Source of the DNA: Raillietiella orientalis
Taxonomy: Eukaryota
Direction of reading: 5' to 3'
Assembly (NCBI GenBank): GCA_036172245.1
Contig: JAYWIR010000004.1
Location: 3,100,001-3,164,000, forward strand
DNA: 64,000 bases
A model generated the notes under the pieces. That model saw nothing but the letters and a program-made list of their open reading frames with translations. It did not search any database and had not been told where the DNA came from. Positions 12,529 through 44,400 of the stretch are shown one piece after another; the first letter of the stretch is position 1, and every line of letters starts with the position of its first letter. A program made the position numbers and the translations under genes.

Positions 12529-12699
12529 AGTGTTCTTGCGGTGTTTCCTGTGTTCTCAGAGTGTTTTCGTTTTGTTACCTTGTATTAACTTGTGTTCCCT
12601 TTGTGCTGTTTTGAGCAACGCCTGCAATACTCTTGGAAACAGGAAAACAATTGCCTTGCTGCTTCCCGTTGCGTGGAGACAATCTCTCTTCTCCGCTGG

Positions 12700-15999: not shown

Positions 16000-17750
16000 G
16001 TCTCCTCAGGGAGACCACTAATACAGCCGACTCGAGAAGACCTTGGGTCATCGTGCGCAAAAACAAAAACAGCACACGCAGAATGCCCGCTAGTGGCCTG
16101 GCCACTACCTCCAGAGTTCCCACCGGATGAGGCGTGGAGTTCCAGACTTCCGTTTCCCACATCCGTGCGCATATTTCTCCTTCCTTCCCTCCCCCGTCCT
16201 TCCGGATTAGGGATGCGGGCTGCCTCCGAGACCGAAATAGGGAAATGGGATGGAGGAGGCGGGCGCCAATTGCCATGCGGACTTTCCTCCTCGGCTGCGC
16301 CCTCACTCGCCCGTCTTCCGACAGGAAACGGGACTCTGGCACTCCCGTTTCGTGGCTCGCACGAGTCCTCGTCCGAGTGAAGGTAGACGTACGCACGAGG
16401 GGAGGAGGGGGAGAATTTGTGAGGATTTCCCATTATCTCCACGACCGATCGTTTCCCCCTCCATCCCGTCCTCCTGACGACGACTGTCGGTTGCGTCACC
16501 ACGGCTAGAGAGCGACCCAACTGGTGGTTGCGGCGAAGATCCCGGGGTGTGTTTAGTGTTCGAGTCGGTTCGTATCCTTCCTGATCTGATCCTCCCATCG
16601 CCTAGGGAACCGAAGGATCCTCCCATCGCCATTGTTGCTGGATCTCGTGATGCCGAGGGCCTCAAAGGGAAGGTGTCCTGAGATGCATCAGCGACCGCAC
16701 GCAGGATGTGTTCTTTCCTCGGTCCGGAAGCTTTGTGAGAAGGAGGGGTCCATGCCGTCTCGCATCCGAAGCGCTTTCTTGCTTTCTCGTGCGGGCCGAT
16801 CCAAGGTCGAGCCTCTAAATGGTGGTCTTCGCCTCTTTCTGTTCGAACGTCCACCCTTGCCTGCCCACCGTGCTGATGTCGCCGCTGGACCCACCCCATC
16901 CTCCTTCATCCCATCTGGACTCGAATCTTCCGAAGTCTTGATCCTTCGGATGCGCCTGTCTCTCTTCTGAATCCCCGGGCGTCTGCGCAGGCGCGTCTGC
17001 GCTAGTCCGCCCTCGAACGATGGCACCCATGGATGCCCTCACGGTTGCCGCCGGCAGGTCGTGCTGGGCGCGTTTCGTGGGCGAGGTGCCACCCTGGGTC
17101 CCTGCGACGTCTCAGCTCTTGACGCGCTGGTGATTCCTGGAAAGTGAGGACGGAGACCTCCGATCACGTGGTGCGCGGGGTCTGGAAGGCCGGTTTTCTC
17201 CAGGGTGCCCCATCAACCAACTGACCGGGGTGCTCTTCGCTCAAGTGGCTGGGTGGGGCCGAGTCTTCCTCTGTCCGTCTCAGCCGTGTGTCACGTCGTC
17301 AGCGCGAATCGGGAAGGCAAGACTCGGTAGACGGACTCTGGGGACCCTCCCGTCCATCGCCCCGTGGATCTTGCCGGAAGGCATTCCGGAAAGGTGGGCT
17401 TCCAGCGCTACCCACCACAGAGACCCTTTTTCTCTGTTCCCGCGCGTAGATCCAGATCTGCAGCGCGTGCGTTCCTCGAGGACGCGAGCTCCATATCTCC
17501 CCTGGAGAATTGCTCCGCCACACGGAGGAGTTTCCCGAGGCGCGCGCGGCGAATACAGTAGAGAGGTCCAGGTTGTGCCAATCCTCTGCCGGCGCGCTTC
17601 CTCACGCAAGACCCACCGGAGCAGTGGACTGGCGCATCCCTCGGCGCCCCGGAGGGTCGCTTCGCGAGAGGCGCGCTCACGCACGACGATGTCGACTCCA
17701 TTCCACTCCCCACCCTCACCCCTCCCGTTCCCCTGATGCACCTTTCAAGT
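16000..17750 (-). mobile_element. Highly degenerate L1/Tx1-type reverse transcriptase fragment
   Basis: ORF 17280-17741 reads STRGNREKGSL..VALE...IHG......LAFPIRADDVT, matching the order GVRQG.PLS..LE..YADD. A GGSG motif occurs further downstream at ~16110. Confidence 0.45.
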
Positions 17751-20700
17751 CTTCGAGGCGTGGTCCGCCAGAAAGGCGGTGGTTGCTATGGGAGATGGGG
17801 TATCCCCAAGCTTCATGCTGCTCAGACGGACAGGGATGCAGACTCCGCCCCTCATCTCCCCTCCCCTTACCCCGAAGCTCTCCCTCGAGGGGGTCCACAA
17901 GAGAAGGCCGAGCCACGGAACCGGATGGAGCCTCTCCGGCGGAAACGGCCGCCTTTCCTTCGCGTTTCGTTCGCTCGCCGGCCGCATGGCAGCGCCCTCC
18001 GCTCTTCGAAACTCGTGGCGACCCGACAAGCGAACGGACCACCTCCGGTTCCCAGTGCTGCAGGACTCGCTCGCCGTGATGGATAAGCAGGAGCAGAGAG
18101 CGCGACGGAGCGGAGTGGGATGACCGGCGCTGACCAGCGGAGGAAGCAGCGGGAGAGCGGGGGTTTGCTCAGGGAAGCAAAGTGGCAGCGGTCGGCTAAC
18201 AGCGCCTGCTGCTGGCACGACGGGACGGGAGGCAGTCTGCAGGACGCCCTGGTGCCGGGAGGAGGCAGACGCTTCGTGCGGAGGCGTGCACGCCGTGCGG
18301 CGACGCCTTTGTTTGTTTCGTTTTCGAGACAAACGTTCCCGCTCCCCCTGCGTCCCGATCGTTCCCCTGCGGTGCTCCAGCGCTTTCCCTCGCTCGCCAA
18401 CGCGGGCCCTGCGGGCACGTGAGGCTGCTTTGGCTCCCACGTGCTCGTCTGCCGCCTCTGGCTCCCATCGCGCCGTCGCCAGGCGGGCGGAGGGTTCTCC
18501 TGCCTCCACGTGTGCTTCACGGGCGCGGGAGCAGCGGGGAATCCGGTCGCGAAGTAGGGAGGGGGAGGGAAGGAAGGAGGAGTCGGGGATCCACGCCGGA
18601 AAAATCCAACCGCGGTACGAAAGCGGAGATGCCAGCGCCATTTTGGGACGCTTCCCGCTCTGAACATGGCGGGAGAGAGGTGATCGTCGTCGCCGGCGTC
18701 GTCGTCGTCAGTGGCAGGGGAGACAGCCGGGAACCCCTCGCTCTGAGGGACGAGTTAGGATGCTGCCTTCAGGCAGCCGAGCAGCCCCATGGGTGAAGCG
18801 GAAAGGAAGGTGTATTGTGCTTTCCCCAGCGGATCTCCGGGAGCCTTCGAATCGCAACGCCCTTCCAATCAGTTCCCGTTGATACCTCATGCACCCTTCG
18901 CAAAGCACCAACGTTGCCACAATAGGAAGAATCCACGAAAGAAAATGGAAAAGGAAAGAGACGAAGAAAGGAGCATTTGGGAGGCTGCGGACCCGTACCC
19001 CTTTCCCCCTAAAGGCGCTAGCCGCGCCTCCGGAGGTCCCGTCTTAAAACCTGGAGAGTAACTCTGGAACATCGAGCAACTCTGGAAGCTGCGCTTCCGG
19101 GCTCCGTAACGGAGGATCGCGCACGGAAAGGCGCATCCCAGAACGTCTGTTCCTGGTAGTGTGCTCCTTGGGAAGCTCGCGGACTTTGCACATACGGAAT
19201 GAAAGGGGGGGGGGGGGGGGGGGAGCGAAGTGTGGACGACCGTTTTTTGCCTTTGCTCCGCCGGTGGGATGGGACGCAAACGGGACGGGATGAAACAGCG
19301 GATACACACATATTTGTTGTACGGTTCTCCCATTGCTTGATTTTGTAAAACAGGAGGAAAGGCAACGGCAAGCAGAGAAGGAGGATGCGCGCGCATCTTG
19401 GAAGGATGCCACGAGGAGGAGGAGGAGGATCCAAGAGGACCTCCAAAGAATGCGAGGAGGAGGGAAAGTCGGTTTTCGATGGAAGCCTTCCTAGCGCGGT
19501 CCGAATGCCTTCGGAAGATGGAAATGGGAAAGAAGACATTTATTTCACTTGCCTATGACCCTAACCGGCGATGGCCTCTCACGCAGGAGGGGGAGAAGGA
19601 TGTAACTGTGCTTGAAAATCACCGAGCATGGATGCGCGCGATGTGACTCTTCCGGTGCACATCACTGACGAGGGGGAATTCCCCCTCTAAGCATCCCATT
19701 AAGGGAGCAAAAGAACCTGGTGACCCCCCCCCCCCATTCCCTTAAGAAAGCTGCAATCTGCGAAGGGGGAGGTAGCGAGTTCCTCATTTAACGACCGAAA
19801 TGAAGAAAGCGGTTCTCAGGGGCGGCAAGAAACGCCTGGGAATTCCATCCCGAGGTCCTCCAGAGTCGTGTGCGATTCTGGCATCAGCCTCGCGGAGACG
19901 CTCCTCCTCGAAGCTGCGCTTTCGGGGTTCAGGTGTCCTCGGTGCGCCTCGCACGAACAGCCTCTCCGGGCCCTACGCTATTATTCTATTCCAAGTAATT
20001 CTTCAGGATAGGGGGCACCCCGGGATGGGGGTTCACCCTATGAATCCAGGAAGGGCTCGGAGTCCGTTCCTCTCACAACTCCCACCTTGGTTGTCTCCGA
20101 AGGGGACCAGTGTTTATGGACAGCTCCGCGCTTCCCCTGAAGCGGAAGGAACTCGGCATTGCAGTTTTCGCACTGGGCGATCTCATGCAACGCACGAGTC
20201 CACCAGTGGACGAGGGGGAGTGCGGCCCTATACTGTGCCAGGTGCGGGGAATGGGGAATCTTCCCGCACTTGTTGTTGGACTGCGTTGCTTCCTGAGTAT
20301 CCGGTAACACTTCGCTGTGGCCCTCCAACTTCCGATGGACAACGGCAGAGAGGTCTTGCGGTGCCTCTTCTCGCACAACTCGATGTTGCCTGCAGCTTCC
20401 CTCGCAGCTCCGTGCTGCCTTGCCTTAGTGGGATCGTGGAGGCGAGAAGGCGCGCCGAAAGAGGCCAGTCGAACGGTGAGGCCCGCAATCGCCTGCTCCT
20501 TCATGAGGGCGGCAAGATGCCAACAAAAGGAGGAAATTACCGACATCCTCCAGAAGATGCCGAGGACGCCAGGAAGAAATCCGTTCCCTTCCCTTCCCCT
20601 TCCAATATTTTTTTGTGTTTTTTTGTTTTTGTTTACCCCTTTCCCCACTCTTCCCGTGCGGACCTCATCGGGGGAGCTGTTCACAAGAAGCAGCGCCTCC

Positions 20701-24006: not shown

Positions 24007-25167
24007 TCACACTATGTTCCAATGGGCTCCAACACCATAATCGAAGATTTCATTTCGATTCTTCACCCACGAGTTTGGGACTCCAGTATACATGTCCCAA
24101 TCATAGCATGCCCAGGGGTTGATGCTTTGGTTACCCAATCTGAAGGTCTCTTTTCTCATCCGAAAACGGAAGGTGCATACTTCTTCTGATATTTGTCTGC
24201 CTGTCTGAGAGGTTGATTTGGCGTAAACAGATTCTTCTCCATACGCAACAGTTCTGTAGAAAGTCCATCCCTCCAAGAGTTCAGTTTCTGTCGTTAATGC
24301 TTGACTGATCGATCCCATGGCCGATCTTTGCACTCCTGAGACGTCACATTTGTATACACGCGATGCTTTGGAAAGATGACTTGATATCAGATACATTAAT
24401 GAGTGGTTCATTTCGAACGGATGAAGCGATGCCCGAAACGATTGACTGTAAATTCCACACATTTCTAGATTCTGGATTTGCTGTCTGGTAAGATGTAAAG
24501 CACGAAACCAGCCAACCAGATTTCTTGTAGGTAACCCAGGTGCTTTTCCACCTTCAATTTCAGGTCTCAAATTAGCTGGGAGGTTCCAGTCTGCTTCGAA
24601 GTCCTCTCCCGCTGGTGCAGTAGTCCTTTCGTAATCGCGCATTATGCGATAGGCTGCAACTCCAGGCGATGGTAGCGACTCATATAGAACATGACTTTGG
24701 GCGGTTATCTTGCCGAACCACCCCCCAACTCCTCCTTCTTGTGCCACTTCTGGCAACTTGGGGAGTGCCCATGTATATCGCTTTCCAGTGCTGTCTTCAA
24801 CATCTCCAATCGCGCGCATATACACTGCGAGTGGTTCCGGAAGCGATAGTCCGACACTGAAGAATTCTCGGAGTCTTATTTCAGGATCAGTGTCTACTCC
24901 TGAATGCATCCTAAGCATAGATGCTCTCGCCCAATAATGCGCTACTACATAGTAGTAGAACATGGAAAACGACACTGCCCTCTGAAATTGAGGATCTGCT
25001 ACACATAGCTTGAGGTAAACAGTTTGCGATAGATCCGGAAGCCCTTGGATTGTGTTCATAAACTTAGTTTCCCTAGGTCCAATGTTCCTAAGTGCTTCAT
25101 GGTTATCAGCCATGCCGTCACTGCTTCGCCTCGACCTTTCCATCTTCGTTCGCTGAGCACCATCCAT
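24007..25167 (-). CDS. Intronless 386-aa ORF resembling a partiti-like dsRNA virus capsid protein (endogenous viral element)
   Basis: ATG-to-TGA ORF with no stops, visibly more GC-rich than the flank at 25.2 kb. Motifs SMFYYY...YWAR, LPEPLAVYMRAIG, H.LYESLPSPGV, LPTRNLVGW and WAC....P..W..NRN recall capsids of arthropod partiti-like viruses. Recognised from memory. Confidence 0.7.
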   Translation of the reverse strand: MDGAQRTKMERSRRSSDGMADNHEALRNIGPRETKFMNTIQGLPDLSQTVYLKLCVADPQFQRAVSFSMFYYYVVAHYWARASMLRMHSGVDTDPEIRLREFFSVGLSLPEPLAVYMRAIGDVEDSTGKRYTWALPKLPEVAQEGGVGGWFGKITAQSHVLYESLPSPGVAAYRIMRDYERTTAPAGEDFEADWNLPANLRPEIEGGKAPGLPTRNLVGWFRALHLTRQQIQNLEMCGIYSQSFRASLHPFEMNHSLMYLISSHLSKASRVYKCDVSGVQRSAMGSISQALTTETELLEGWTFYRTVAYGEESVYAKSTSQTGRQISEEVCTFRFRMRKETFRLGNQSINPWACYDWDMYTGVPNSWVKNRNEIFDYGVGAHWNIV

Positions 25168-28055
25168 GTCTTTAGCCCTTAAGAGATTAAAAATGCTGGC
25201 AAATCATTTTCAAATTTTCAACATTTAACTATTTATTTATTAAAACAGCAAAGGGGGGGGGGAATTTAGATCACGTCATTTTGAAGAACAAGCAATCATT
25301 TAAGATTTGGTATTTGGTAGACCCTTTTAAGACCTTCAGCTGGCCTTCTAAGCGATATTCTTCATGATTGAAAAACCGAAAAACATCACCTGAATCCGGA
25401 AACCGCAATTATCCGAGTTCTGAAATTGGATTTGTTCCGATTAAGTGGAATGCACTTGATGAAACGTGACTGAACATGTCTCAAAGTGAATGCAAGACAG
25501 CATGACGATTTTCACAAATCACCCATTACCTGTTACGAGTTACAACGAAAATTAAGAGGGCGCATGGGTAATAGTGAAAATCGGGATAACAGACAACTGC
25601 CAATATGAACACAGTAGCGCACATCCACGTGGAAACAATTTCTTTCCATACAGATGAGTCGAAGTTTTCAAAATGATCTGTGTAGTTCTAAAGTGGCATT
25701 ACTTTGCTTGCATTTTCCAAAGCAACAAAAGCCACACTAATTTAATAAAAAGGTAGAAGACTACTTACGCCCTGTTCCTCGCTAGGTAAATGGAATGGGT
25801 AACTCGGTTTCGAGTCAGGAATTTTCGGTAACTAATTTAGAAGAGGTATTTCGCTTGAGGTTACATCGATTTTTAGTAGCAAATAAAGGAACTGAGAATC
25901 TGAAAGATAATTTATAGGACTACGGAAATCAGAATGCGGTACCCACACGCAATTGTGTGTACAACAACCGTGTTGGAACGATTTTAATGTCAACACAAAT
26001 GTGGAAAAAGCATACTGATATGAGGCGACATACAGTTCCCATTACTTTCTGTTTGCTTTGGCTGCTCTTAAGCCTTCAATGCAGGAAGTCGTTTTTCAGT
26101 ATGGTTACATTTTACTTTCGGAACTATTTGTGTGCAGACTTAACGTGTTCTAACTTTATTCTAACGAAGTCATTCCTGATCTCATACTCTAACAAAATCG
26201 ACCCTATTCTAATAAAGAAATCGGTAAACTTGCAAATCTCCAGTGTTGAGATCGTAGAATAAGACCCTCCCTACTCTCCATCACTTCGGAAAACATGAAA
26301 AAAAATACATTCGCAGAAAAACCACAGCAACCAACAGCAACCATCACTTCGTTCTAATTCACTTCATTTTAAAAGTGGACTTTTAAACATTTCTGGCAAC
26401 GAATTAGATGGTTCCTTTTCAGAAGTCAAAAGAAAACGGAAGTTGGAGGAGTGTAAAATATTCTACCTTTACGATTTTTTCTTTAATTTCATTTTGCATT
26501 ATTTAGAAGAAATACTTTAAACATAGAAAACTCAGACATCCAGAAAATACACCTCTTATTAATGCAATTAATGAACTTTGCGATTAGCTGTCTGAAAGAC
26601 TAGAGAAGAATGACTGAAGTAACGTTGTAAGGGAAGAAATTTGCGTTTCGGTAATGGTAAACAAAGATGCTCATAATCAATAAATACATTAGCAGCTATA
26701 TATGATAGACAATTTCAAGGAGATTCAGATTCACATGTTCCAATTATTTGCCAAAACAGATGCAATAAACATGGCTACTGAACTGATAATCACCACCATT
26801 TCCCTTCAAATTTCACGATTCACGTGTTTATTACAAAAAAGAAAAAATTATCACTTATGAATTTAACCTCTCCAAGTTTAGAATGCAGGCCATCGTTTTA
26901 TATTGATGTTTCTCTATGTCTGAATGAATTAAAAAATTATTGTTACTTTCCACATATTGCAGAATAAAAAAAAAATGCATTTTTCCTTTTATTTTTGACT
27001 TAAGACGCATTGCAAAGGGGCATTACAGTATCTTACTTATACTCGAGCTTTTATCTCACCCGAAGAACTTCTCAAGAAATCCTAAAAGTGCTTTCATAGT
27101 TTTCTGTCTATACAGTCCCATAACCTGTATTACATGGCTTACAGAGACTATGATACAGGAGATGCTGAGCACATTGTTGATTTCACCATATTTAAATGTC
27201 ATGTTCTTGCGTAGCCATATACTATATCCTCACAGATGCAACTTTTCTTCCTCCTGTAAAGCGCAATCAATCCTTCCTCTTCAGGCGCGTTTTTTGTTTT
27301 CCTAGGCTTCAATGAGGCAGAATTTCAAAATCAGACTTGCCAATTCGTAAAATGATCGCAAATGTCAAAACGGCAAAATATGAATAAAGAAACCGAGCAA
27401 TTTGAATACCGAGAAACGATAAAGTTAATGAAGCCTTGCTGAAAGCATTTGCTGTTGACTTGTGATGTGCTTCTTACTTGTTAACTCTTTCAGTGCAATC
27501 TGTCAGATTTTAAACTCGGAGCATTTGAAGGGAAGATAACGTACTGCACGAATTCTCAAGACTGTACAAATGAGGATGAGTGCTCGTTTGGAGAAATGTT
27601 TCAGGAGGTTACTATGAAAAAATAGTGAGTTCATGCCAGCTCGGAAATCATGAATTGGTACATTCAGAATTTGGAATCTTGCAAACACCTACAAGAATCC
27701 AACATGCTTACCGCAACCGTCACATTTCTGCGGAAGTTTTGAATCCACCAGACGGTGACTCGGGCGCAATGCACCGCGATTCACATCGTTTTCAAATAGG
27801 CAGCAAATGCTCAGTTCGCGCGTCCTTCAATGTTACAAAAAAAAAAAAGGAAAAAACCGGAAAAACTGATTTGTATGGTTATGATGAACAAATGGAAAGA
27901 AATATTTTTCTGATGTGTTGATGGCAACCTGGATCGGATATCCCTGAAAAAAAAAAAAAAAAAACACTGGTGGTAACTAACACAAAACTGATATTTCTAG
28001 ATTCCTTTTTGTTTGAAATATATTGTTTATGCCGTCTGTTACATGTGACAAATAA

Positions 28056-29082
28056 GTGTTAGCAAAATTAGATGCTGAAATACGTGGCAGAAATGCATCC
28101 AGGATCATAGATGTGAAAGTGTTTCATGAATGTTGTTTAATGTCTGGAGGACTAACCATGGACGAATTATGCAAATGCCGAGATCAGCTACGAAAGGCGC
28201 ACAAAATCTATGTGACAGTAAGTGCTCAAATTAGACAATTCTGTTAGACATTTTCCTTAGCACAGATTGTTACTGCATTACTTACTGGAGGTGAAAGAAG
28301 AAATCAATGAAACATCTTTGCAGCACGAAGAAAGCAGTGAAAATCTCATTGTAGGTACAAAGAAAGTGATTGCTTAAATTATTTCTTTTCCAGAGGTCTT
28401 TAGATTTTTCTAATGTCAAAACATCAAACAAACAAGTTGTTCCCTCTGAGCAGCTTTTGCAACTTTTGCACTGTAAATTAATGTGTGATAATAATCAGAT
28501 GTTGGAGTATGTAACACACAAAAGAATGAATACAAAAGATAATGGACAGATTTTGCTCCAGTTGGTAACCAAACAGAAACATCAGTGGGAAGAACAGCTA
28601 GAAAGAAAATTAGAACAACTGCATCAGCTTCAGAGACTGCTTCAAAAACAGAATGAACTCTTTGAAAAAATACATGTTTTAACCATTCAGCATCAAACGC
28701 TTCAAAAAACTGGCTGGTTACAGGAACAAATTGCTCATGAAGACCATTTAATTATCAAGCAGCAAGTGCTACACTGCAAAGCCAGGTGACCCATTTTTAT
28801 CATATTCTCCACTTTAATCATGCTTTTAGGATTTTACAGCTTGAATGTTTACGTGAAACTTATAGTGAGATAGCATTAGAAGCTTTAAGGAGACTGCGCG
28901 GCAGCCTCTGTACTGCCAAACGAGCTGACAGCCTTAAATTAAAAAGTCTTCGAGAAGAACTAAATGCATATCAGAATCTGGGGCCTGCCATGACTGCATT
29001 GGTCAAGGAATACAATGCACTTCGGAAAAAAATATCTTCAAAGAAATGGGCAGTACAACAATTGCAATCTCAGAAACTATAG
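28056..29082 (+). CDS. HAUS4: HAUS augmin-like complex subunit 4-like. Exons ~28056/28140-28217, 28261-28350, 28394-28785, 28830-29082; true start unresolved
   Basis: Three GT-AG introns of 43, 43 and 44 nt join the frames. The C-terminus LRETYS...LNAYQNLGPAMTALVKEYNALRKKISSKKWAVQQL matches the HAUS4 pattern (DTY...L..Y..LG..F..LV.EY..L......KWAL). Confidence 0.8.
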
Positions 29083-31427
29083 TTTACCCACATCTTTGAA
29101 ATACATTAAAGTACCCTTCCTATCTTTGAAGAGTACAGGATCTGCACGAAAAGAAACTGTCTTGAGAGGCATATGGTTAAAAGCATGAACCAGTAGATTA
29201 ATACAGCTGGAACGGACCATCATATGGTTCTCCTCCACACCAACTTCTTGCTTATTACATGTAGAACACTTGAACCTTTTCCTTGGAGTGACTTTAATAG
29301 GTGGTTTTCCTGTCATATTAGCTATTAAGAAGTTCATGGTGATATCTTCACAGTTATGTTCCTTATCTACCCAATTACGAATAGATGCTGGTAACAACTT
29401 GGTGTAAGCATAATTCCAGAACTGCAGAGTACAATACAATAAATACATAGTGCAGAAACTACCTTGTGATAAAATGCAGCTCCTGTCAGTACCATTGACA
29501 AGTCATTTGTCCAGTTGGAGTTATAATAAAATTGTGATCCTTTCTTTGTATGCACTCTGGATGGAAACCCAACTAGCCTATCAGGATATTCTCTCCATAC
29601 CTACACAGTGGCATTAACAAGTGACCAACATTTAAAATACCTCATAAGCAAATTCCAATTCATCAGCAGTCAACATGCTAATATCATTATCCAGGGACAA
29701 AATAGCCTCTGTCTCAATGTCCTCATATGGGAAAAAACGATTACTTAATTTATTCTCTGCCATATGGATTATCCTGACTGGATGATCCACTTGTGGCCAT
29801 AATGAACCTGGCATCTTACAATTAGCACAACTTTTTGCAAGACTTACTTGGTGGAGGTGGTTTATAAGGATTATTCCATATAACAACAATCCTGTCAAGT
29901 GAGGAAGCTTTGGCAACACTAGAAATAACTTTAAATAAGGAATCAGAATTATCATACACCGAAATCACAGCTGTGAAACCTTGTGTTCGGGAAACACATG
30001 TTGGCATCACAAATGGAGAGGTGCTTGCCTCCTAGAAAAGTGAGACATCCACAAAAAGCTTTGAGAAAGCATCGTTTTTACGAGTTTAGGATCGCTGTTC
30101 CAGCGTAGGATGCCTTGAGCTTGCTCTGGGAATAGGCGATCATTGAGGATTTGTAAGGTAGTTTGGACAATAGCATCAATTGAGCTGAAGTACCGTTTGA
30201 AAATGCGGATAATATTCTTCTTCATTTCTTTTTTTCTGCCAGCACTAATGGCACAGATGTGATTCATTAGCTCTGGAAACTGCTGTCTGCTAAGTTGCAC
30301 TGAGGCTCTAAAGAAGATAATCTTCCTGGGATTGTTCTGTATTTCTTACTGTTTCCAGTCAATAATGTCTTCAAAAGGAAGGACATGCTCGTCTCCTATG
30401 AGAATAGGGATGCAACCTGCATAAAGCACATGATATAGCATGAGATATGTCACACCATTTGGATACAAAATGAGGCAGAATTGAGCTTGCTAGATCTGCA
30501 ATGATAATTATGGGCAGAGATGCAATAATTCCATACCTGCAATATTTTCCAGTAAGAAAACATGCGTGTTCCCATGCAACGCTTATCATAGTCTTTTCCA
30601 GGACAAAAATGTAAAAGCAAAATCTCGTTTTGATGCTTACTGTGGAATGCAGCTATCAACTGAATCCAACTATCAGGAAGATTCATGTCAAAGAAAATAA
30701 TCAACTGATATTCATGAAGATCATGGTGTGCAAGGGCATCTATATTGTTGCTTCCAAGATAGTTGTACACAGGAAGTGACACATCAAAACCATTACGATA
30801 CACTGCAAAAGTTAGGCCACCTCCAGCAAGAATTGCATGCCCAGAAGGCACCGAAAAGTAATTTTTTTTAGGGTTGGGCAAGAAATTAAATAACAGATGA
30901 TTTTCTCCTCCATTCCAGCTACAAAAAAGCCCAGACAACATAAGTGCAAAGGTTTATAAAAGATTCACTCACTGGGGAAGACTTGCTAAAATGTGACTGC
31001 TGATTTCTGTAGGTATGTTACTTTCTTGCAACAAATCTAAACTAGGTACAAGTAAACATGCTTTGGAGGGATTGTCAGTGTACCATGCACTGTTCTTGAT
31101 GGATTCAATAATCTGTATAAACTCATGGGAATACGAGATATTGACTTCTCCAATTAATGGATACACATACACACTCAACTTATGCTGATCATGGTACCGA
31201 CAACGATGTATGTTCAAACAAGAGTAAATAGTGCAATTTGGGTTAGTAGGTGTAAACACAAGGTCTTTAGCTGCAAATGTGGGTGACCCTTTGGATTTAA
31301 AAAAAGGTATGTTTGGACTTCTGGTATACACTTCAAAAACTGTAAATAGGAGGATGCCAGCTATGCCCAGCCCAGCCAGAAGATTCCTCTGGTAAGCTAC
31401 CCAACTCTGGAGAGAAATTCGGCACTT
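29077..31427 (-). CDS. EXT2: Exostosin-2-like glycosyltransferase (GT47+GT64). Exons 31427-30973, 30918-30537, 30489-30350, 30307-30082, 30031-29848, 29807-29641, 29600-29463, 29421-29077; start codon not in the visible exons
   Basis: N-terminal TM segment [16 protein letters not shown]; motifs [102 protein letters not shown]. Seven 40-54 nt GT-AG introns keep the frame. Confidence 0.93.
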
Positions 31428-31450
31428 CTACAAAAGAACAAATCCCAATC

Positions 31451-31456
31451 TTTATT
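31451..31456 (-). promoter_or_regulatory. Putative cyclin K polyadenylation signal AATAAA
   Basis: The only AATAAA in the 87 nt between the cyclin K stop and the first visible EXT2 exon. Confidence 0.55.
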
Positions 31457-31514
31457 TAATCTCTCACTCAGTAAAAAAAAAATGTATTTCAAAACGCACT
31501 ACTAAAAATGAAAG

Positions 31515-33057
31515 TTAAGATATTGGGGGAGGAGGATAAAACTGTTTGATTGGAGGTCCAACTGTAACAGGAGGAGGAGGATACACATGAGGAGGAGGAG
31601 GAGGATAGAAAGACTGCTTTACATTTGTTGGTAGTGGTTGGTTGGGAACTGGAGGAGGAGGATATTGTGTATAAGAACTGAATTGAGGTGGTGGAGGTGG
31701 ATGATGTGGAAGTGGTGCAGGAAAAACTGGTGGGGGTGCTGCTGGAGGGAATGTCTGAGCAGGAGGATACAAAGTAGGTGGGGGTGCAGGTGGAGGATAA
31801 GGATATGGATACTGAGGTAAAGAGGCAGGAGACTCTGTTTTGACTGAGGCAATTTCAGACTTTGTTTTCCCTTCCCCTTCTGCTCCCTTTTTGTTTTCTT
31901 TCCATACATTCTTACTGGATGTAGCTAGTGAAATATAAATCAAGTAGCAGCAGTTATAGATAATTTACCATTTGATGGGGATGAGCATGATGAAGAACTT
32001 TCTGCTTTCACAGGAGTTAAGTAGAGAGGAGGGGAAATCACCTCTCGTGGATGGCTCTGAGTAGTATACAGATCAAGTACCTGGTGACAGATATCTACCA
32101 GACTATTTTTCAGACCTTTTATTTCCCACCTTCCAAGAGATCTAATGATAAGTCATCCACAAACATATCCCACCATCTATTATGCCGAGTGTTCCTCCCC
32201 ACCCAATCTACAATTTCGAATTTTGATAATTTGCTTGCCAGATACATTAAAGCAATAGCTATGATTTCTGGCTCCCATTGCAAGCATAAGGTAGTGCACA
32301 AACTATCGTTGATAAAAGTCCATGCCATTTGAACCATTTTTTCTAGTTTTTTCTTATCACCTTGAAAAAATAGGCATTTCAACTTACAACTACAAAAATA
32401 AAACTCTTAACCTTTTAGAGATTTTGCATATTTTATCAAATAACCATAAGGATGATTAACTTGTAGATCAAACTTAATTGTCTGAAGCAAAACTCTCTCT
32501 AATGTCATCACTTCTTCCTGCAACATTATCATGGCAAACTCATTACATTTGAAACAATGAACCAACTTTTGGATTTCTCCCAAATTGCAAAAATTTATCC
32601 TCATTTAATAATTCATGCGCTACTTGTATTATTTGTTTGCATTTTTTGGGAGTTTCTTCTACCTTTCCTGCTAAAAATAAACAACAACATGCAGTAACCT
32701 AAAACAACATTTCAGATAAATAAAATAGAAGCATACAACTCACATATCTCGGAAAGTCCTTAAATGAATGAAACATGTAGAAGCGATGAAAATATGTGAC
32801 ACCAGTTGCCATGGTATCATATCTTCTACAGCAATTTAGGAAAAATATAAAGATCAAAAATGCATTAGAAAATCTCCCATAATTTTCCAAAGAGCGAACA
32901 AAATTTGATAAAGAAAAGGATACAATCCTAATTTGGTACCACTATCGATGATGAATCTAGCCCCTTCACGTCTATACCTACACTCAGTCTCATAATCAAG
33001 ACCATCTTGATTTGAAGGACTATTTTTTAGTTCCTTTTTATCATAATACCATGACAT
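31515..33057 (-). CDS. CCNK: Cyclin K. Exons 33057-32924, 32825-32744, 32698-32567, 32517-32412, 32360-32130, 32094-31969, 31924-31515
   Basis: Spliced product has [109 protein letters not shown] and a proline-rich tail. Confidence 0.96.
32826..32923 (-). other. U12-type (minor spliceosome) GT-AG intron in cyclin K, 98 nt
   Basis: 5' splice site GTATCCTTTT; branch-like TTTTCCTAAAT just before tgctgtag. Splicing restores [10 protein letters not shown]. Confidence 0.9.
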
Positions 33058-35189
33058 CTTAGTATTAGTTGGGATATATTATTTAACATATAATCAGGGT
33101 AACAGCAACCATTTTCAGGAAACACGTTTCACTTTACATCATTGTTCATTCATGAATACTAAAACGGCTGTCTCTGCAATCATTGACAATTTACAAAAAT
33201 ATGTCCAACACATGAGTAAACTTTACACATGTATAAATTCACAAACACTATGTATTGGCACAAAACTGAATGCATACATAAACTTGATAAATACGCGTAC
33301 GTGGCAAACGAAATATCCATAAATTAACTGATCCCTGAATAATCCTATTGCGTTGGGTTTGAATGATATTGATACATCACACATGCGACAACAATTAGCG
33401 AATCAGCAGATTGCAAATATTCTACATTGGCTAGTACCTTACACAATCTCATGGATTTTGGTATGCTTACTGTTGTGTGAGCGGTTTCGATAATTTTTGC
33501 AACAGATAAAGCACGTTGGCACACGATCCCAATAATGCAGTCCAAGCACACGCCACGTACAAATGCAAGGCAAGGATAAATTGCAACGGTGACACATATC
33601 CACAAGCCAAGTACAAAATGACAAGCATTCGCATGTTGGGAAATAAAGTACTTAGGAAAGTAGTACGAGAGTGTTTCCTGATCATAAATTCGTTGCAACT
33701 GCGAATCGAAGCTTTCAATCTGCTCTTTACGCAAAAAAAAAAAAAAAATCATTTCCATTTTTTCCAAGGTTCCTACACTCGGAATCCATTCCGGAAGCAC
33801 ATTTTCAATAGAACAAAAAGGAAAACGTCCCCCATTTCTTTATTAGCAAAATAAATGTGCATTATACATCGGAGTAGGCAAATAGTAAATTATACTTATA
33901 TTTTTGAGTTAGCTATACAAAGTGAGGAGTAATTTCACTTCTGCGAAACTTTTTCCGTGCTAAAACACTGTAACCCCTCAGATATTTTTTTTCTAGCAGG
34001 AAATGGTTAGCAAATACATTCTGCAATGGATGTAACCTGAAAAACTTTTCGCAAAGAGTTTCGAAATATTTTCGAGGAAAGAAACTGAAAAAATAAATGA
34101 AGTGCACTTCTCCCTAAGATAAACTCGATTTATTGGGGATATGCTAAGAGGAAGGATCTTTCAAATCGATTGCATGAAAAAAACAAAATTACATAATTTA
34201 AATGTCATAAGCAAGTACTACACGGGTCATTTGATCAATTAAATCAATGTCAAAACAAGACTTTGAGTTCTGGCTTCTTGTTTACTTAGAGTATGATCTA
34301 TATATCACGATATTCCATATAACCGGAAAGATTGATACTCGGTCAGCAAATTATCTATCGGTAAAATTTTTTCACATTATGTAAGGATACAATATGAAAA
34401 AAAGGTCCCTATGGCATTGGACTCTGACAGTTCCATCCATAATTTATAATCATTTTCATGTATCTTAATGCATCAGTTTCATCAGTACTATTTCCATACT
34501 TATTCACGAATCGAACCTCTTTTTCTCACCTTCGATAACCTTACATGCATCCACATCATTATATTAACTTTTGCTACATTCAGTTGTATACCTCATTGCA
34601 ACTGCTATAGACAAATGATAAAGGAACAAAGAAACTTAAGGAATCTGTTTATATTGTTTATGATTGTTCTCTCTTTTTATACTGTTTGCAAAATTATATG
34701 ACCAGATGATACATCTTTTGTTTTAAAATATGCTCTTCCATATCTCTTGAAATTTCCTAAAATTTGAAAGTTCAAATTTTCTAGGTACTCTTTATGCCAT
34801 ACCTCACAAAATGGATTATATAAACCTTTTTTCAGTCTACTTATTTGATGCCTATCTTATAATAATAGGACCTAACCAATCAAGACGTTTATTTATTCTA
34901 TAGTTTTATATGGCAAGGCAAAATCTGAGATTTCAAATACCAAATTTGCATCATTCTAGATCAAAGGAACAGTGCGTAAATTCGAAAGATACATCTTGAC
35001 AGAATTATAGGTACTGTTATTCGAAATTTTCTCAGAGGGTTCCTGATTTTTCCAAAAGTTCCAAAATGCCATATTATTTAAGATTCAAATGTAATTCAAA
35101 TGTCTGAATCTGTTATCGTTAAATTGTTTGGTACCTAGGAATGTAGCATTTAAGTAAACACTGTTATCATTAAAATCTTCCCCTCGAAA

Positions 35190-35395
35190 TCACTTTACTG
35201 GTGCTTTTTTTGTCATATTAGCTATTGGAAATTTCATGGCGTTATTTGCATAATTGACTTTGTGAAATGGCAAATTGCTGCTGGCAGCAATTCTGTGCAA
35301 GCACAATTCCCAAACTGCAGAGTACCACACAATGAACATATGTGCCGCAGAAACTACTTTGTGATAAAATGCAGTTCCTGTTATTCCATAGACAA
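35190..35395 (-). pseudogene. Partial duplicate of the EXT2 3' exons including the intervening intron
   Basis: TGTAFYHK|gtagtttctgc...tactctgcag|...MKFPIANMTKKAPVK parallels 29290-29500. It is frameshifted and partly deleted. Confidence 0.85.
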
Positions 35396-38249
35396 GACTG
35401 CTAACAGGATAAATACTTCTATCAAAATTCACAAAACTTCATCCAAATACGAGTCATCAGCATGAAATTGCTTTACTGTTTAACAGTTTCCGTCTCTTAG
35501 CTATATTCCAATTATAGACAGAAAATGGATGAAATACTTAATTTCTAACAAACTAGACAAATTAACTAATCTCAATAATTTTACTTTTTAGTTGGTTTCC
35601 ACAGTCATTATGGCCAAAATGTTCAAAAGATGGAATTCATGTTCCTCATGTTAATCGTTTTTAATACGTCAGAAATGTGTCAGTATTACAAATGGCATAT
35701 GAAGTAGTATTCGGCATTCATCATTCCTGAATTATAAATGAATAACAGAGTCATTAAGATAGAAAAATTAAACTTATAAACTTATTAAATATAATATAGA
35801 TTATATTAATATTTACTAATGTTGGGACTAATAATATCCCACTTTTATATTCAGCTTTAAATGTATCCAGAAAATGACTTTAGAAAATAACTTGATTTTC
35901 CCTACATTCCTCCAATCATGAAATGAACATGTAACATATTCATCTTAAATAAGGAACGAAGGAACCGGTCTAAGAGAAATCGGTCTAACAGGAATGCAAA
36001 AGCCTAACGTCTCTCTCGGTCTAAGGGAAATCGGTAAATCATTAAGGAAATTAAGTCAGGAAGTCAAAAAAGCCAACCATCAACAACAAAGACCATGAGA
36101 ACAACACAAAGTAAAGGCTTCGAGGACTCTTTGAGAACCAAAGGCATCCATCCGTTTTGGCGAAAAAAGGCAGAAATCATATGCTCTTTCTCATTACTGC
36201 TCTCTGAACAAGGACCAAGCACACCACAAAAGGCTGCATAGAAGCTGTACGAATTTTTCTCATCAAGAAGATTACTCAACAACAAAAGAATACAGTAGCA
36301 TAAAATAAAACCACAAGAGCTCAAGAAACTGAATTTTCTGTGCTGCATTTCGTGGAAGCAAGATCAGATGAGGAATGCTTTTCTGTTAAGCAGATTGACA
36401 AAATGAAATTTTGTTGTAAAGTTTATGGTGCTTCTGTGTGCTCAAAAATAACATGATCAGAAAAAATTTGACAAGAAAATAATAAGCTTTGCAAATAACT
36501 TGATTTGCATCTCTCAAGAAATATAAGGAAGGTTGCACAAAATAGTTTGATGAACCAGGTAAAATGTGGTAGCAGACAGAGTAAGCAGCGTACAAGACAT
36601 AGAATCAATATAAAACTTTCAATTTCAACTTTTCCTTGCGAGACAAGAGAAGAAAAAAAACAGAGACCACAGAAATTCCTCTTTGTAATGTTTTGGGTAT
36701 CCCCAAGGTAGTGCTCCTAATGATAGTACCATGGTATTTTTCATCCCATCATGGCTATTTACTGGAAGTATCGGATGTGATTTAGTCTTCCCTGTCCTTT
36801 TCATCCCCTTTACACGCTGCTGATATTTTTCCAGATTTGAATCAAATGTTATTTTTTTTAAAAAAAATCACCAATATTGCCATGCGACAGAAGTTAACGA
36901 ATGTTCTTTTTGTGACTTTTACAGGAAGACAAAAATAATGATTAATTTAATTAAGAGAAGGGCCCGAGATGAGATTCTCTTGTTGCCTGGAGGTTGATGA
37001 GGAGCAAATCATCATATGACATCCAAATGTCTGGAACAATTGTATTCTTTGTGTTCTCATCTAAGAATACGAAAACCGTCATCAGAAATTTCACTAAATC
37101 TTACCTCGCAGTATCCAGAAGGTTTCTCAATAGCAAAAGGTTACCAGGTAAAGATTCAGCTACATGTTGAATCTTACCCAGAGCATAAAAGTTCGTGCCT
37201 AGAATGCAAGTGGCTCTTCCATCCCGCTCACATTCTGGTCCAAGAAACTTAGGACGTTTCGAGAGACGATAATAAAGTACTCTGCGTTTATTGAAGTGAG
37301 CTGTAGCAACTGTACGAGGAAGAACTGGAATAGAAATCCAGCCAATCGACACGGGAGACCTGAGTTGAAATCGGACGTGAGAAAGGAATTTGCAGAATAG
37401 GAAGAGAAAAAAAAATATTTACAGTAGTATAGAAAGTTGGGATCCGTCTCTAAGGGTCTCTGCTATGCAAGCTCTACTAAACTAAAGAAGGAAATCCTGT
37501 ACTGGAACTATTGATGTAGCATTTTCACGAAACGGAAGTAATCTCAGGAAGAACTGAGAGAACCGTTCCAAAGATGCGTCCGTCTGGATCTCTACTGATT
37601 TCCCACCCGCGTATCATCTCAAGCTTTTTGCCTTCTATTTGATTTGATTTACCTGTCACGAGGAAATGAAAAGGATAAGACTGTCGAAATCGAGGAATGA
37701 ACAACGAAGTTGGGATACCACACCCGAAAGTCGCATCCAGTCTCAAGCAAATAGTAAGATTCCTATGAAACACCTGAAAAGATCTGTGGGGATTCCGGCA
37801 TTTCTTTGCAAGGGACGATTTCTCTGTCCCTTGAAGCTCCCATTCACTGAAATCATCTTTCTCGTCAGAAGAGAGGAAGAAAAACTTTCACATCACAGTC
37901 TACGTTCCTTGGACTACGCCATGTTAAAAAGCAATACTGGATTCAGGCAGTCATGGATTCCGACGTCAAGGAGACATTGCCTAGTGTTCGTGAGCAAGAG
38001 CTCTTATTTAGCCTTCTGGACAAACGTGAAGAGCAAACTAATCCTCGGAACTCCGATAAAATCCTCCAAATGATAGGGTACTTCGGAACCAGAATCATGG
38101 GAGTCAATGGCCAGAGGAGATGAACTTTGGAGTAACTGCATTCTTGATTTTCCCAGTCCCCAGAGGGGTAGATAAATTTATTTTCCATTCACACACTACG
38201 TACACATTCGTTCAAATGGGGGAGGGAGGTCACAGAATCACTGTTCGCT

Positions 38250-41492: not shown

Positions 41493-44400
41493 TTAGTGGT
41501 AGAATGAGAGGACATCAGCCCAAGCTGCCACAACGAAGCCTTCAATACCACATTCGTTTGTGCCTCGTCTTATGCGGAAGAAACCGTTTTCACCCCATTC
41601 TCGTCCCCAGGAATTAGCTGCCAGCTGAAAGCAAAGTATGAATGAAGCTTTACAGAAGTGAACAGAAATAATGAAATGATTGTACATCATTAAACATTGA
41701 CAGTTTCAACTTGACTGGATCCCAATTCGTATTCAAAGATATCAAATTTATGAGGAGGAGGTTGGAGCGATCATCTCAGCACGTGATCTTGTAACGCTAT
41801 TTGCGCTAGGAACCAGCAGCAGCGTGTTTGGGGGGCTTCGGTGTGACTTCAGAAATAGCGGTGTTGCAGATAAAGAAAAATGGTCATCTTTTCAAGCGTT
41901 TTCTCTGCCGATCATCCGAAAGCGGGCGCATTTTGCATGTCTGTGTTGTGGAAATGCAGTGTTCCGCGTTCTCGAATCGAATTCCGTAACCCAAACCCAT
42001 GCTGCACTTGGTACCTGAAACAAAATGGCGGCATGAGAGATGACTCCAGCGCATAAACAGGAATACTCCTCGAATATATATATATGTATTCTAAGCAAAA
42101 AGACAGTTTTGACAATGATGAATCTCGAAGTCATGATGAAAGTTTTGCCTAGTTACATCGGATATCAGAGGGATGTTGGCCACGGCCCAATAAGCCGAAT
42201 TCTAACCCATCTTTCAGAGTTCCAAAAGACAAACCACTCAGCTGTGATTGATGCTAAGGATTTCATGCAAATCGAGACACGGGACGAGAATCATCTGTAT
42301 TGCATTCACTTACATTATCGTGTCATCGCAATCAAGAAGCAAAGCGATTTGCTTCGAAGCGAGAAAATGTGATTCTTACACCCAGTCGAAGATTCCTTTT
42401 TTTTCCTGCTTACTTCTCTCCGCATGGACTTTGCTGGGTCTCAAAATAGCTGATTCCCAAGAGTGTGATTGAGGGTCTTGAATGTGCTCTCATGACAGGG
42501 AGGTCTTTGGAATGTGACCAACGCGATCCCTTGCTCTCAAAATAACCAAGTGCTTCTGAACCAGTCATGTTGCATTTCTGTAGGCATTTTGTGACATGAA
42601 TGATAGAAGCTCGATGTAGATTGTAGGTAGGGCTGCATCCTATTGCACGTTGCAAATTCCTTTCTGAATTTTGTGGACAGCGCTTCATACAATAGGAAGA
42701 CACAGCTGTAAGTACTTTTTCGATTTGTGCTTCAATTGATCAGCACATTTGATTTCTGTGCAGATGAAAAGTTTTTTTTTTTTTTTTTTAAAAAAAAGGA
42801 AAGTAGTGTTATATTTATTGAATATTAATAATGGCCGAAGAAAGAAAGAAACACGCGAAAACATCGCTTAATAGAAAGCTAAAACGGAAAACATGCAGCC
42901 TCCTAACTTTAGTGGATTAGTATTCAAATACGTAAATTTCGCGTTCCTCCAGGGTGCTGTCACAGCGGTTGAGGTTCTTCATTGACGACACAAGCCATTA
43001 GGAATGGTTGCTTTTTATCGAATCGTCGTTTGCAAAACTGACTGCTTGCTAACGTGGGAACCGGATATTCGTTCCGCGAGTAGACGAGACACATACAATG
43101 CAACATTTCTCTTGGCGACCACCAACACAATCAGAGGAACCGTTTTCCTGAAGACTTTACGTGCTCAGTTGCCATGTGCTGGCCACTTCGACTTCTCGGC
43201 TCTTTAGTCTGCACCAGAGTTATGATTTTTTTTTTTTCTGAAAATGCAGAATCTTTTGAAAGATGTCGAAGATTCTTCTGTCTGGTTATAGATGATGAAC
43301 AACAGCGTGCAAGGTCTTTTTGACACTACGCAATAGAGATCCCCATGGCAGCAGACGTCTTCATCACTTGAAACACAGCTAAAATAGTCAAGGGAAGTGT
43401 TGTAGTGTTCAATCTTTAAAGAATCGATGGCAAAAGATCGAACTGAAGCAACACGAACAGCTTCCACGTCGAAAAGAACAAGCGTGTTCGTGAACGTTTC
43501 TGTGACTAAGGGTTCTTCTGCCTTGAAGTTAAAGGACAACACCGTCGTTATCAGCATGACATTGCGGACTGCTCCCTCACGCTCCATTCTCAAAACGGGA
43601 GCAAGAGAAATGGGTCCAGACTCGCTCCCTCTGCTTCCTAGCATTCATTCGTAAGCCCTGTTCCCAGACTAGTTCATAGGACTCACAATGTGGCGTTGAA
43701 CTCTTCGATAACTGAGGGGTGCATGAGGTTGTAAAGGAACCCAAAGACAGGTGTTTCTTTCGATATCAATTTCTATCAGACACTCTTTAAAACATGAAAT
43801 ACCCCAAATTGCTATCTTTCAGAATCACTTTCAGAGATCTGGAAACATTCGTATCTTTGAGAATAGGTGCTGGAAGATAGAGATTAGATAAAAGAATCGT
43901 GTATTGACCGTGTTTCATGATACCCGTGCATGAAGTTCAGATCTTCGGAAATGTGCCAAACCCAGGGCTTTACCAGTTCGAGTCTCAGATTGAAATTCCT
44001 CTTCGCAGAAGGGGAAAAATTACAACGTTTCAGCCCCGTCGTCTTCAAACTCAAAGTTCACTTTTCGGAGTTGCAGGTCTTCGCGAATTCGTTCGTTCGT
44101 TCCTGCCCCACATCTCATCTTCGGCGCCCCCCTCACGGTCCCGTTTTCTCTTCCACGGATTTTCGGTTGTCCTCCGCATCTCCGAGCATTTGGGATCGCG
44201 GATTCACACTCGGCGGACGGGATCGTGGGAACCGCTTGCTCAATGAAGAGCTTTCTCGTTACTTCCAGTGGCCTTTTTCAGCAACAGGTTATTGATTGTT
44301 AGTGGTGAGGCAAGCACAAGTGCCAAAGAGAGTGATGCACATGGAAGAGTAGGAGAAAACGTACGATCACGCTTTCCCGCGTCACCGATGCGCTCAGTCC

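What the first reader, a model, noticed from the sequence alone, without database searches (positions are those of the whole stretch)
31321..31520. EXT2 has no start codon of its own and begins at a splice acceptor 87 nt behind the cyclin K stop
Seen: on the minus strand the EXT2 frame opens directly after tgttcttttgtag (this TAG is in frame) as [15 protein letters not shown] plus the TM helix. The whole 455-nt exon has no in-frame ATG, and the 87-nt gap after the cyclin K TAA has no minus-strand ATG. The cyclin K AATAAA lies about 22 nt before this acceptor, so 3' cleavage and the acceptor would nearly coincide. The rest of EXT2 is intact. Known: coincident poly(A) and trans-splice sites occur in C. 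elegans SL1-type operons, and flatworm spliced leaders end in an AUG that can initiate translation. Inference: cyclin K and EXT2 are co-transcribed and resolved by mutually exclusive processing. The EXT2 Met would come from an AUG-ending spliced leader, a shared upstream exon or a cyclin K fusion; a non-AUG start is also possible. This is the best candidate for an undescribed system here.
Basis: partly seen in the sequence, partly recalled or inferred. Interest (0 to 1): 0.8.

Follow-up and report, generated by a model that had tools for sequence, protein, structure and literature searches.

The report
EXT2 gene without its own start codon
An intact animal EXT2 gene opens directly at a splice acceptor just behind the cyclin K gene and has no start codon, so its AUG probably comes from an added leader, as is known in flatworms, but no RNA data could be had to prove it.

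Summary
On the minus strand cyclin K ends at TAA 31517-31515. ATTAAATAAA lies at 31460-31451 and a normal-looking acceptor (T-rich tract plus TAG) ends at 31428. The EXT2 frame opens at 31427. Exon 1 (455 nt) has 0 in-frame ATG in 152 codons, and the 93 nt upstream have no ATG. The rest of EXT2 is intact: 678 codons and seven GT-AG introns of 40-54 nt. Its first Met is residue 230. Exon 1 already encodes 14 residues before the membrane anchor; the median is 13 in 125 homologues. So essentially only the Met is missing.

Best reading (about 0.45): cyclin K and EXT2 form a two-gene polycistron, and an AUG-ending spliced leader supplies the start in frame. This mechanism is in print for flatworms, and abutting poly(A)/trans-splice sites are known in C. 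elegans SL1-type and Ciona operons. It is therefore not an undescribed system.

It is unproven. No RNA run was listed, no genome is held, no SL RNA gene lies in the window, and the phylum is unresolved. A cis-spliced upstream ATG exon cannot be excluded.

The parts
31515..33056 (-). Cyclin K coding region. ATG at 33056, 7 exons, 6 introns of about 35-88 nt, TAA at 31517-31515, proline-rich last exon.
   Evidence: ORFs. Sequence read by eye. Cyclin-type C-terminal clusters were nearest. The exon borders are my own reading, not a spliced alignment.
31451..31460 (-). Overlapping ATTAAA/AATAAA, the presumed cyclin K poly(A) signal, 23 nt before the first EXT2 base.
   Evidence: the only AATAAA/ATTAAA between the cyclin K stop and window position 30900, just past the end of EXT2 exon 1. 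Use as a signal is inferred.
31428..31450 (-). 3' splice acceptor: T-rich tract plus TAG (gattgggatttgttcttttgtag). Proposed trans-splice site.
   Evidence: 12 of 20 pyrimidines and 11 T, against 10-14 and 7-11 in the seven EXT2 cis acceptors. Use is inferred.
30973..31427 (-). EXT2 exon 1 (455 nt): [15 protein letters not shown], the membrane anchor and the start of the GT47 domain. No in-frame ATG.
   Evidence: Pfam Exostosin_GT47 at E 2e-06 and 27.8 bits, below the 33.4-bit cut-off for this piece alone. Homologues.
31389..31408 (-). Two further phase-0 AG sites inside exon 1 (ctctccag|AGT, AG at 31408-31407; ttaccag|AGG, AG at 31390-31389). They could serve as alternative acceptors and would also be in frame with a leader AUG.
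   Evidence: Sequence. In my hand count, 3 of the 6 AG dinucleotides in the first 42 nt are phase 0, which is no more than chance.
29077..31427 (-). Whole EXT2 coding region: 8 exons, 678 codons, introns at 30972-30919, 30536-30490, 30349-30308, 30081-30032, 29847-29808, 29640-29601 and 29462-29422.
   Evidence: tblastn with P0001 and P0043. Gene model scripts.
28741..29082 (+). Last exon of a HAUS4-like gene that converges on EXT2. Both coding regions end on the same palindrome CTATAG (29077-29082).
   Evidence: Pfam HAUS4 at E 3.4e-19. Sequence.

Best explanation
Cyclin K and EXT2 are transcribed as one polycistronic pre-mRNA from a promoter upstream of cyclin K. Cyclin K mRNA is cleaved and polyadenylated just after ATTAAATAAA (31460-31451). 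A spliced leader RNA whose exon ends in AUG is trans-spliced onto the acceptor at 31428/31427, or onto one of two phase-0 AGs a few codons further in. The leader's AUG then sits directly in front of codon AAG and starts translation as [22 protein letters not shown], giving an ordinary type II Golgi glycosyltransferase. Shown: the anatomy, meaning no ATG, an in-frame acceptor, the poly(A) signal 23 nt before it, an intact gene and a tail of normal length. Inferred: co-transcription, use of the acceptor for trans-splicing, the existence of an AUG-ending leader in this organism, and that the organism is a flatworm or has a flatworm-like leader.
For: (1) Exon 1 has 0 in-frame ATG in 152 codons, the 93 nt before it have none, and the first Met of the model is residue 230. 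(2) The gene is otherwise intact, with 678 codons, seven GT-AG introns and conserved GT47/GT64 parts, so it is not a decayed copy. (3) Exon 1 gives 14 residues before the hydrophobic anchor. In the 125 of 131 full-length homologues with such an anchor, the median is 13 and the quartiles are 4 and 22. So only the Met is missing, which fits an AUG laid exactly on the acceptor. (4) The acceptor equals the gene's seven cis acceptors in pyrimidine and T content. (5) The two genes lie on the same strand, with 87 nt from stop to acceptor. That is within the operon thresholds used in print: 300 bp or less for flatworms (PMC12582326 passage) and under 250 bp for chaetognaths (PMC12460157 passage). Yet the window is gene-poor: only HAUS4, EXT2, cyclin K, a papain-family gene and reverse-transcriptase remnants were recognised in 64 kb. 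(6) The single poly(A) signal lies 23 nt before the acceptor, as in operons without intercistronic spacer (PMC12582326 passage). (7) Precedent: all reported flatworm leaders end in ATG. In S. mansoni the leader AUG is in frame in 28% of trans-spliced transcripts, and more than 40 cDNAs need it (PMC9851317 passage quoting Cheng 2006). (8) Holding the window's EXT2 in one clade with the two flatworm EXT2 sequences is not rejected (p-AU 0.54).
Against: There is no RNA evidence of any kind. The phylum is unknown. The EXT2 tree leaves the window on a long branch (2.35) in an unresolved fork. A clade with a copepod is not rejected either (p-AU 0.69), so the flatworm test says little. The best-matching EXT2 C-terminal parts are arthropod, mollusc and hemichordate at 51-62%, and no flatworm is among the 120 listed. 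The two flatworm EXT2 proteins in hand are far more divergent, with branches of 4.9 and 5.8. No SL-RNA-like gene (ATG|GT followed by an Sm-like site) lies in the window in a plausible place, and Rfam gives nothing, though such genes usually lie elsewhere. The copepod leader-based primers seen in one paper's table end in AAG, not AUG (PMC4664967 table), so outside flatworms the reading needs an unknown kind of leader. In S. mansoni, 45 operon pairs had intercistronic distances of at least 5 bp, with a median of 99 bp. A spacing near zero would be at the short extreme for a flatworm.
Confidence: 0.45

Rival explanations
1. Cis-splicing. A small upstream exon that carries the ATG, alone or with a few codons, is spliced to the acceptor at 31427. 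That exon belongs either to an EXT2 promoter upstream of cyclin K, with cyclin K nested in the first intron, or to a 5' exon shared with cyclin K.
For: In the 13.5 kb upstream on the same strand there are 421 ATG-to-GT phase-0 combinations. Six have a GTRAGW donor, for example ATG 34559 to aag|GTGAGA at 34530. 45 combinations lie between the acceptor and window 33100, a stretch that covers cyclin K. One is atg|GTATTA at 33052-33050, four bases after the cyclin K ATG, which would give exactly ATG|AAG TGC. PMC12582326 reports extensive sharing of acceptors between cis- and trans-splicing in flatworms. This reading needs no unknown leader if the animal is not a flatworm.
Against: The candidates are as many as chance would give, and none stands out. 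The introns would be 1.6-5.8 kb, whereas all 13 introns of the two genes are 35-88 nt. The intron would carry a complete same-strand gene with its poly(A) signal 23 nt before the acceptor. The 33052 candidate sits behind an out-of-frame ATG.
Confidence: 0.3
2. There is no AUG. EXT2 starts at a near-cognate codon. Or this copy is a start-less allele or recent pseudogene. Or a base-call error hides an ATG: the first codon AAG and the fourth codon ATT are each one substitution from ATG.
For: AAG and ATT are one step from ATG. The one DNA run that could be laid does not cover 31427, so the base calls could not be checked.
Against: All 678 codons and the 14 splice sites of the seven introns are intact, which argues against decay. 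In-frame stops (TAG, and TAA 8 codons up) close the frame just upstream, so an unspliced transcript would have to start within the cyclin K 3' end. The ATT has a poor context, C at -3 and T at +4 (my reading). Substitution errors in finished assemblies are rare (general knowledge).
Confidence: 0.15
3. A cyclin K-EXT2 fusion. A phase-0 donor of cyclin K is spliced to the EXT2 acceptor, and the cyclin K ATG starts a chimeric protein. Candidate donors are exon 2 at tat|GTGAGT (32744), exon 3 at aaa|GTTGGT, or aca|GTTGGA within the last exon.
For: 2 of the 6 cyclin K donors are phase 0, as is the EXT2 acceptor (my reading; donor 32744 is also listed).
Against: Two of six is what chance gives. A partial cyclin box in front of a Golgi signal anchor has no known counterpart (recalled, not searched). 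PMC12582326 says such fusions at operon acceptors are very rare and probably harmful.
Confidence: 0.05

Closest known systems
Flatworm mRNAs that take their initiator Met from the 3'-terminal AUG of the spliced leader (Cheng et al. 2006, J Biol Chem 281:733; seen only as quoted in passages of PMC12582326 and PMC9851317)
   Same: The reading frame begins at a 3' splice acceptor with no AUG of its own, and an AUG laid on the acceptor is in frame and gives a sensible N-terminus.
   Different: It is not shown that this animal is a flatworm or has such a leader. No leader-bearing read was seen.
Operons without intercistronic spacer: C. elegans SL1-type operons and Ciona intestinalis operons (PMC12582326 passage)
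   Same: The upstream gene's poly(A) signal lies about 23 nt before the downstream gene's acceptor, so cleavage and trans-splicing would nearly coincide.
   Different: As I recall, those leaders do not end in AUG and the downstream genes keep their own start codon. The poly(A) site here is inferred, not mapped.
Flatworm polycistrons, e.g. S. mansoni candidate operons (PMC12582326)
   Same: Same-strand gene pair less than 300 bp apart, with an acceptor upstream of the second coding region.
   Different: In S. mansoni the 45 pairs with UTR data had spacers of at least 5 bp, median 99 bp. Here the spacer would be close to zero.
Loci with a shared 5' exon or a nested same-strand gene, such as the cholinergic VAChT/ChAT locus (recalled, not searched)
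   Same: Two genes on one strand where the downstream gene's first coding exon is reached by splicing across the upstream gene.
   Different: No shared exon was identified here, and the two proteins have no functional link.

Membership tests
Downstream gene of an SL-resolved polycistron (operon) | Same strand and short distance to the upstream gene (300 bp or less, or under 250 bp, in the papers read) | tested here: met
   87 nt from the cyclin K TAA to the acceptor. Thresholds come from PMC12582326 and PMC12460157.
Downstream gene of an SL-resolved polycistron (operon) | A 3' splice acceptor upstream of, or at the start of, the downstream coding region | tested here: met
   ttgttcttttgtag|AAG. 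Its pyrimidine and T content lie within the range of the gene's seven cis acceptors.
Downstream gene of an SL-resolved polycistron (operon) | Reads that carry a common non-genomic leader at that acceptor | not testable with these tools
   No RNA holder was listed. The single DNA run gives no cover at 31427.
Downstream gene of an SL-resolved polycistron (operon) | SL RNA genes in the genome | not testable with these tools
   No genome is held. Within the window there are no Rfam hits and no plausible ATG|GT plus Sm-like pattern.
Leader-AUG-initiated mRNA of flatworm type | The leader AUG would be in frame, with no stop between it and the frame | tested here: met
   The frame opens at the first base after the AG.
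Leader-AUG-initiated mRNA of flatworm type | No usable AUG of the gene's own | tested here: met
   0 of 152 codons of exon 1. The first Met is at residue 230.
Leader-AUG-initiated mRNA of flatworm type | The organism's leader ends in AUG (all known cases are Platyhelminthes) | tested here: inconclusive
   The EXT2 tree is unresolved. A clade with flatworms is not rejected (p-AU 0.54), but neither is a clade with a copepod (p-AU 0.69).
Exostosin-2 (EXT2; GT47 plus GT64 domains) | Full-length colinear similarity to EXT2 proteins that carry PF03016 and PF09258 | tested here: met
   tblastn with P0001 and P0043 covers the gene. The C-terminal part is 51-62% identical to named exostosin-2 proteins. 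The highest identity over the whole model is 45%.

The most novel reading that the evidence does not exclude
The animal is not a flatworm, yet it uses a spliced leader (or a dedicated mini-exon) ending in AUG that hands start codons to downstream genes of spacer-less operons. That would be a second, independent origin of leader-supplied initiation. It would be coupled here to 3' end formation of the upstream gene, so each pre-mRNA would yield either cyclin K mRNA or translatable EXT2 mRNA.
Probability: 0.12. Interest if true: 0.65.

Novelty: new member of a known kind. Interest (0 to 1): 0.4.

Why it matters
If the reading is right, automatic annotation of this genome will truncate or miss EXT2, and every other gene that relies on a leader AUG. 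The locus is a clean test case: one acceptor, one poly(A) signal 23 nt before it, and a protein whose N-terminus is easy to check. It would also give a quick way to tell whether this poorly sampled lineage has flatworm-type leaders. As biology it mostly repeats what is known from Schistosoma, unless the animal proves to be outside the flatworms.

Tried and rejected
- RNA evidence: the look-up of sequencing runs listed no RNA holder, only one DNA run with 0.06 of the words. Laying it gave short low-depth pieces and proline-repeat matches, with nothing at 31427.
- Whole genome: none is held.
- Exact 28-base search of metagenome contigs: no match.
- Earlier findings of this scan: five look-ups, nothing.
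- Naming the phylum through proteins:
  - The exon 1 search found 1 hit among 1091 candidates. The library search found 252 hits, none above 48% identity.
  - The HAUS4 search found 0 hits among 803 candidates.
  - The Atlas gave only broad eukaryotic clusters.
  - Cluster look-ups named Macrostomum, Schistosoma, Hydra, Oithona and Rhopilema EXT2, but nothing close to the window.
Whether a cyclin K-exostosin pair is listed there is therefore unknown. The main text holds neither word.
- One search for papers holding both 'exostosin' and 'spliced leader' found one unrelated paper.
- A reassigned stop codon was rejected, because TAA also closes the frame 8 codons upstream (my reading).
- A 40-nt intron from ctga|GTGAGAG to the acceptor was rejected as a source of a start, because TGA lies in frame right at that donor (my reading).
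Full report
WHAT IS THERE

Read on the minus strand, the cyclin K frame ends ...PPPPIS with TAA at 31517-31515. After an 87-nt gap comes the string gattgggatttgttcttttgtag. Directly behind it, at 31427, an open frame begins: [15 protein letters not shown], then a hydrophobic stretch ([18 protein letters not shown]) and the start of an exostosin GT47 domain.

A script confirmed three points:
- The 152 codons up to the GTGAGT donor at 30972 hold no in-frame ATG.
- The five ATGs of the exon are all out of frame and lie at nt 235-368.
- The 93 nt before the exon hold no ATG on this strand.

The TAG of the acceptor is in frame. By my reading, the TAA inside AATAAA is a second in-frame stop eight codons further up, so a reassigned TAG would not open the frame. 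AATAAA (31456-31451) overlaps ATTAAA (31460-31455). This is the only such signal between the cyclin K stop and window position 30900, just past the end of EXT2 exon 1. 23 nt lie between it and the first exon base.

THE GENE IS INTACT

- tblastn with two EXT2 homologues (P0001, 702 aa; P0043, 629 aa) covers the gene from 31388/31247 down to 29080.
- A first gene-model script skipped one exon. The corrected model has 678 codons, no stop, and seven GT-AG introns of 40-54 nt.
- The C-terminal part is 51-62% identical to named exostosin-2 proteins of arthropods, molluscs, hemichordates and jawless vertebrates. Of 385 candidates, 374 passed and 120 were listed.
- The model has 16 Met, the first at residue 230, well inside the GT47 domain. 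No internal ATG could give an anchored enzyme.

HOW MUCH IS MISSING

I took all fetched proteins of 640-760 aa that start with M (131). I measured the residues before the first 17-residue window with mean Kyte-Doolittle hydropathy of 1.9 or more. 125 of them have such a window, with a median of 13 residues before it and quartiles of 4 and 22. The window's exon 1 gives 14. So the exon already encodes a tail of normal length, and little more than the Met itself is missing. With Met added, the tail carries K2, R4 and R15 ahead of the anchor. That fits a type II orientation (positive-inside rule, general knowledge).

THE ACCEPTOR AND ITS SURROUNDINGS

- The 20 bases at -23 to -4 hold 12 pyrimidines and 11 T. 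The seven cis acceptors of EXT2 hold 10-14 and 7-11. Five of those seven end in TAG, as this one does.
- Two more AGs inside the exon, ctctccag|AGT and ttaccag|AGG, are also phase 0. That is three of the six AG sites in the first 42 nt (my count), which is not beyond chance.
- Cyclin K, read by eye, starts at ATG 33056 and has six introns of about 35-88 nt. Its ATG directly follows ...actaag, so an AUG-ending leader there would also be in frame. The odds of that by chance are one in three, and the tract is poor.
- On the other side, a HAUS4-like gene (Pfam E 3.4e-19) converges on EXT2. The two coding regions end on the same palindrome CTATAG.
- The three genes are packed tightly, yet the window is otherwise gene-poor. 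One search scanned 12 frames and one search scanned 127 more. Besides EXT2 and HAUS4, only a papain-family gene (frames 52822-53454 and 50918-51283) and reverse-transcriptase remnants were recognised.

WHAT COULD NOT BE DONE

- No RNA run was listed, and only one DNA run held 0.06 of the sampled words. Its contigs give no cover at the acceptor.
- No genome is held.
- An exact 28-mer from exon 1 is absent from the metagenome contigs.
- Rfam finds nothing in the window at gathering scores or at E up to 1.
- A pattern for ATG|GT followed by an Sm-like site hits only three places. Two lie antisense to coding exons and one in sequence with no recognised gene; none is a plausible SL RNA gene.
- Earlier findings of the scan returned nothing.

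WHICH ANIMAL

This matters because only flatworm leaders are reported to end in AUG.
- No close relative exists in the protein collections. Exon 1 reaches at most 48% identity among 252 hits. HAUS4 found nothing among 803 candidates.
- I built a tree of 32 rows: the window's model plus 31 proteins picked by hand from the roughly 340 fetched, to spread over phyla. The window sits on a long branch (2.35) in an unresolved fork with a copepod, malacostracans and the two flatworms.
- Holding the window in one clade with Macrostomum and Schistosoma is not rejected (p-AU 0.54). Holding it with the copepod Oithona is not rejected either (p-AU 0.69).
- The phylum stays open. Tiny introns beside kb-sized ones in the papain-family gene fit my recollection of flatworm genomes, but that is recall, not a test.

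WHAT IS KNOWN

Passages of PMC12582326 state:
- All reported flatworm leaders end in ATG, which can supply a start codon (citing Cheng et al. 2006).
- Candidate operons are same-strand pairs 300 bp or less apart.
- C. elegans SL1-type operons and Ciona operons have no intercistronic spacer.
- 45 S. mansoni pairs had spacers of at least 5 bp, with a median of 99 bp.

A passage of PMC9851317 quotes Cheng 2006: the leader AUG is in frame in 28% of trans-spliced S. mansoni transcripts, and more than 40 cDNAs need it. I did not see the Cheng paper itself. The copepod leader-based primers in a table of PMC4664967 end in AAG. The chaetognath genome paper (PMC12460157, passages) reports operons under 250 bp apart but gives no leader sequence in what I read.

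VERDICT ON MECHANISM

The best reading (0.45) is a two-gene polycistron in which an AUG-ending leader is trans-spliced at 31427 and starts EXT2, while cyclin K is cleaved a few bases upstream. It explains every feature with a mechanism already in print, and the gene's anatomy is what that mechanism predicts.

The main rival (0.30) is a cis-spliced ATG exon. The 13.5 kb upstream hold 421 phase-0 ATG-to-GT combinations, six with strong donors. 45 lie between the acceptor and window 33100, a stretch that covers cyclin K. Such an exon cannot be excluded, but the number is what chance gives. The introns needed (1.6-5.8 kb, across a whole same-strand gene) are unlike the 13 introns of 35-88 nt seen here.

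Non-AUG initiation, a start-less allele or a base error (AAG and ATT are each one step from ATG) gets 0.15. An in-frame cyclin K-EXT2 fusion through a phase-0 donor gets 0.05.

NOVELTY

If confirmed, it is a new member of a known kind, notable only for the near-zero spacer. It would be of real interest only if the animal proves not to be a flatworm.

Noticed in passing
29077-29082: The convergent HAUS4-like (+) and EXT2 (-) coding regions end on the same palindrome CTATAG. Each reads CTA (Leu) then TAG (stop) on its own strand, so the two overlap by 6 nt and each 3' UTR must run into the other gene.
   Followed up: partly
35174-35396 (-): A 230-nt copy (72.5% identity) of EXT2 29273-29502, spanning the last intron and the exon parts on either side of it. 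It has the same orientation and lies about 2 kb upstream of the cyclin K start. It is a genomic fragment rather than a processed copy, and its frame is broken.
   Followed up: partly
24010-25203 (-): A 398-codon open frame with no Pfam hit and no PDB sequence match. It could be a mobile-element or virus-derived gene. Nothing supports any name.
   Followed up: partly
1-6000, 12001-20000, 44001-48000: Blocks of 54-62% G+C with frames open on all six strands and shared peptide strings in inverted orientation. They sit in a window whose genic part is 31-40% G+C. Probably one GC-rich repeat family.
   Followed up: no
7127-7692 and 9382-10812 (+): Two weak reverse-transcriptase (RVT_1) pieces and a 476-codon frame with no Pfam hit downstream of them. 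This looks like a decayed non-LTR retrotransposon.
   Followed up: partly
50918-53896 (-): A papain-family (Peptidase_C1) gene whose exons are separated by kb-sized introns, unlike EXT2 and cyclin K. The stretch around the expected catalytic Cys reads GWCASSWA, so the Cys appears replaced. As I recall, this is the case in TINAG-like inactive cathepsin B relatives.
   Followed up: partly
29422-33056 (-): 9 of the 13 cis acceptors of EXT2 and cyclin K end in TAG. One ends in AAG and only 3 end in CAG (and my reading). All 13 introns are 35-88 nt.
   Followed up: partly
31969-31971 and 33050-33057 (-): The donor of cyclin K intron 6 is preceded by ATG (aATG|GTAAAT). If joined to the EXT2 acceptor it would be in the EXT2 frame but out of the cyclin K frame. 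The cyclin K ATG itself directly follows an AG (actaag|ATG).
   Followed up: no
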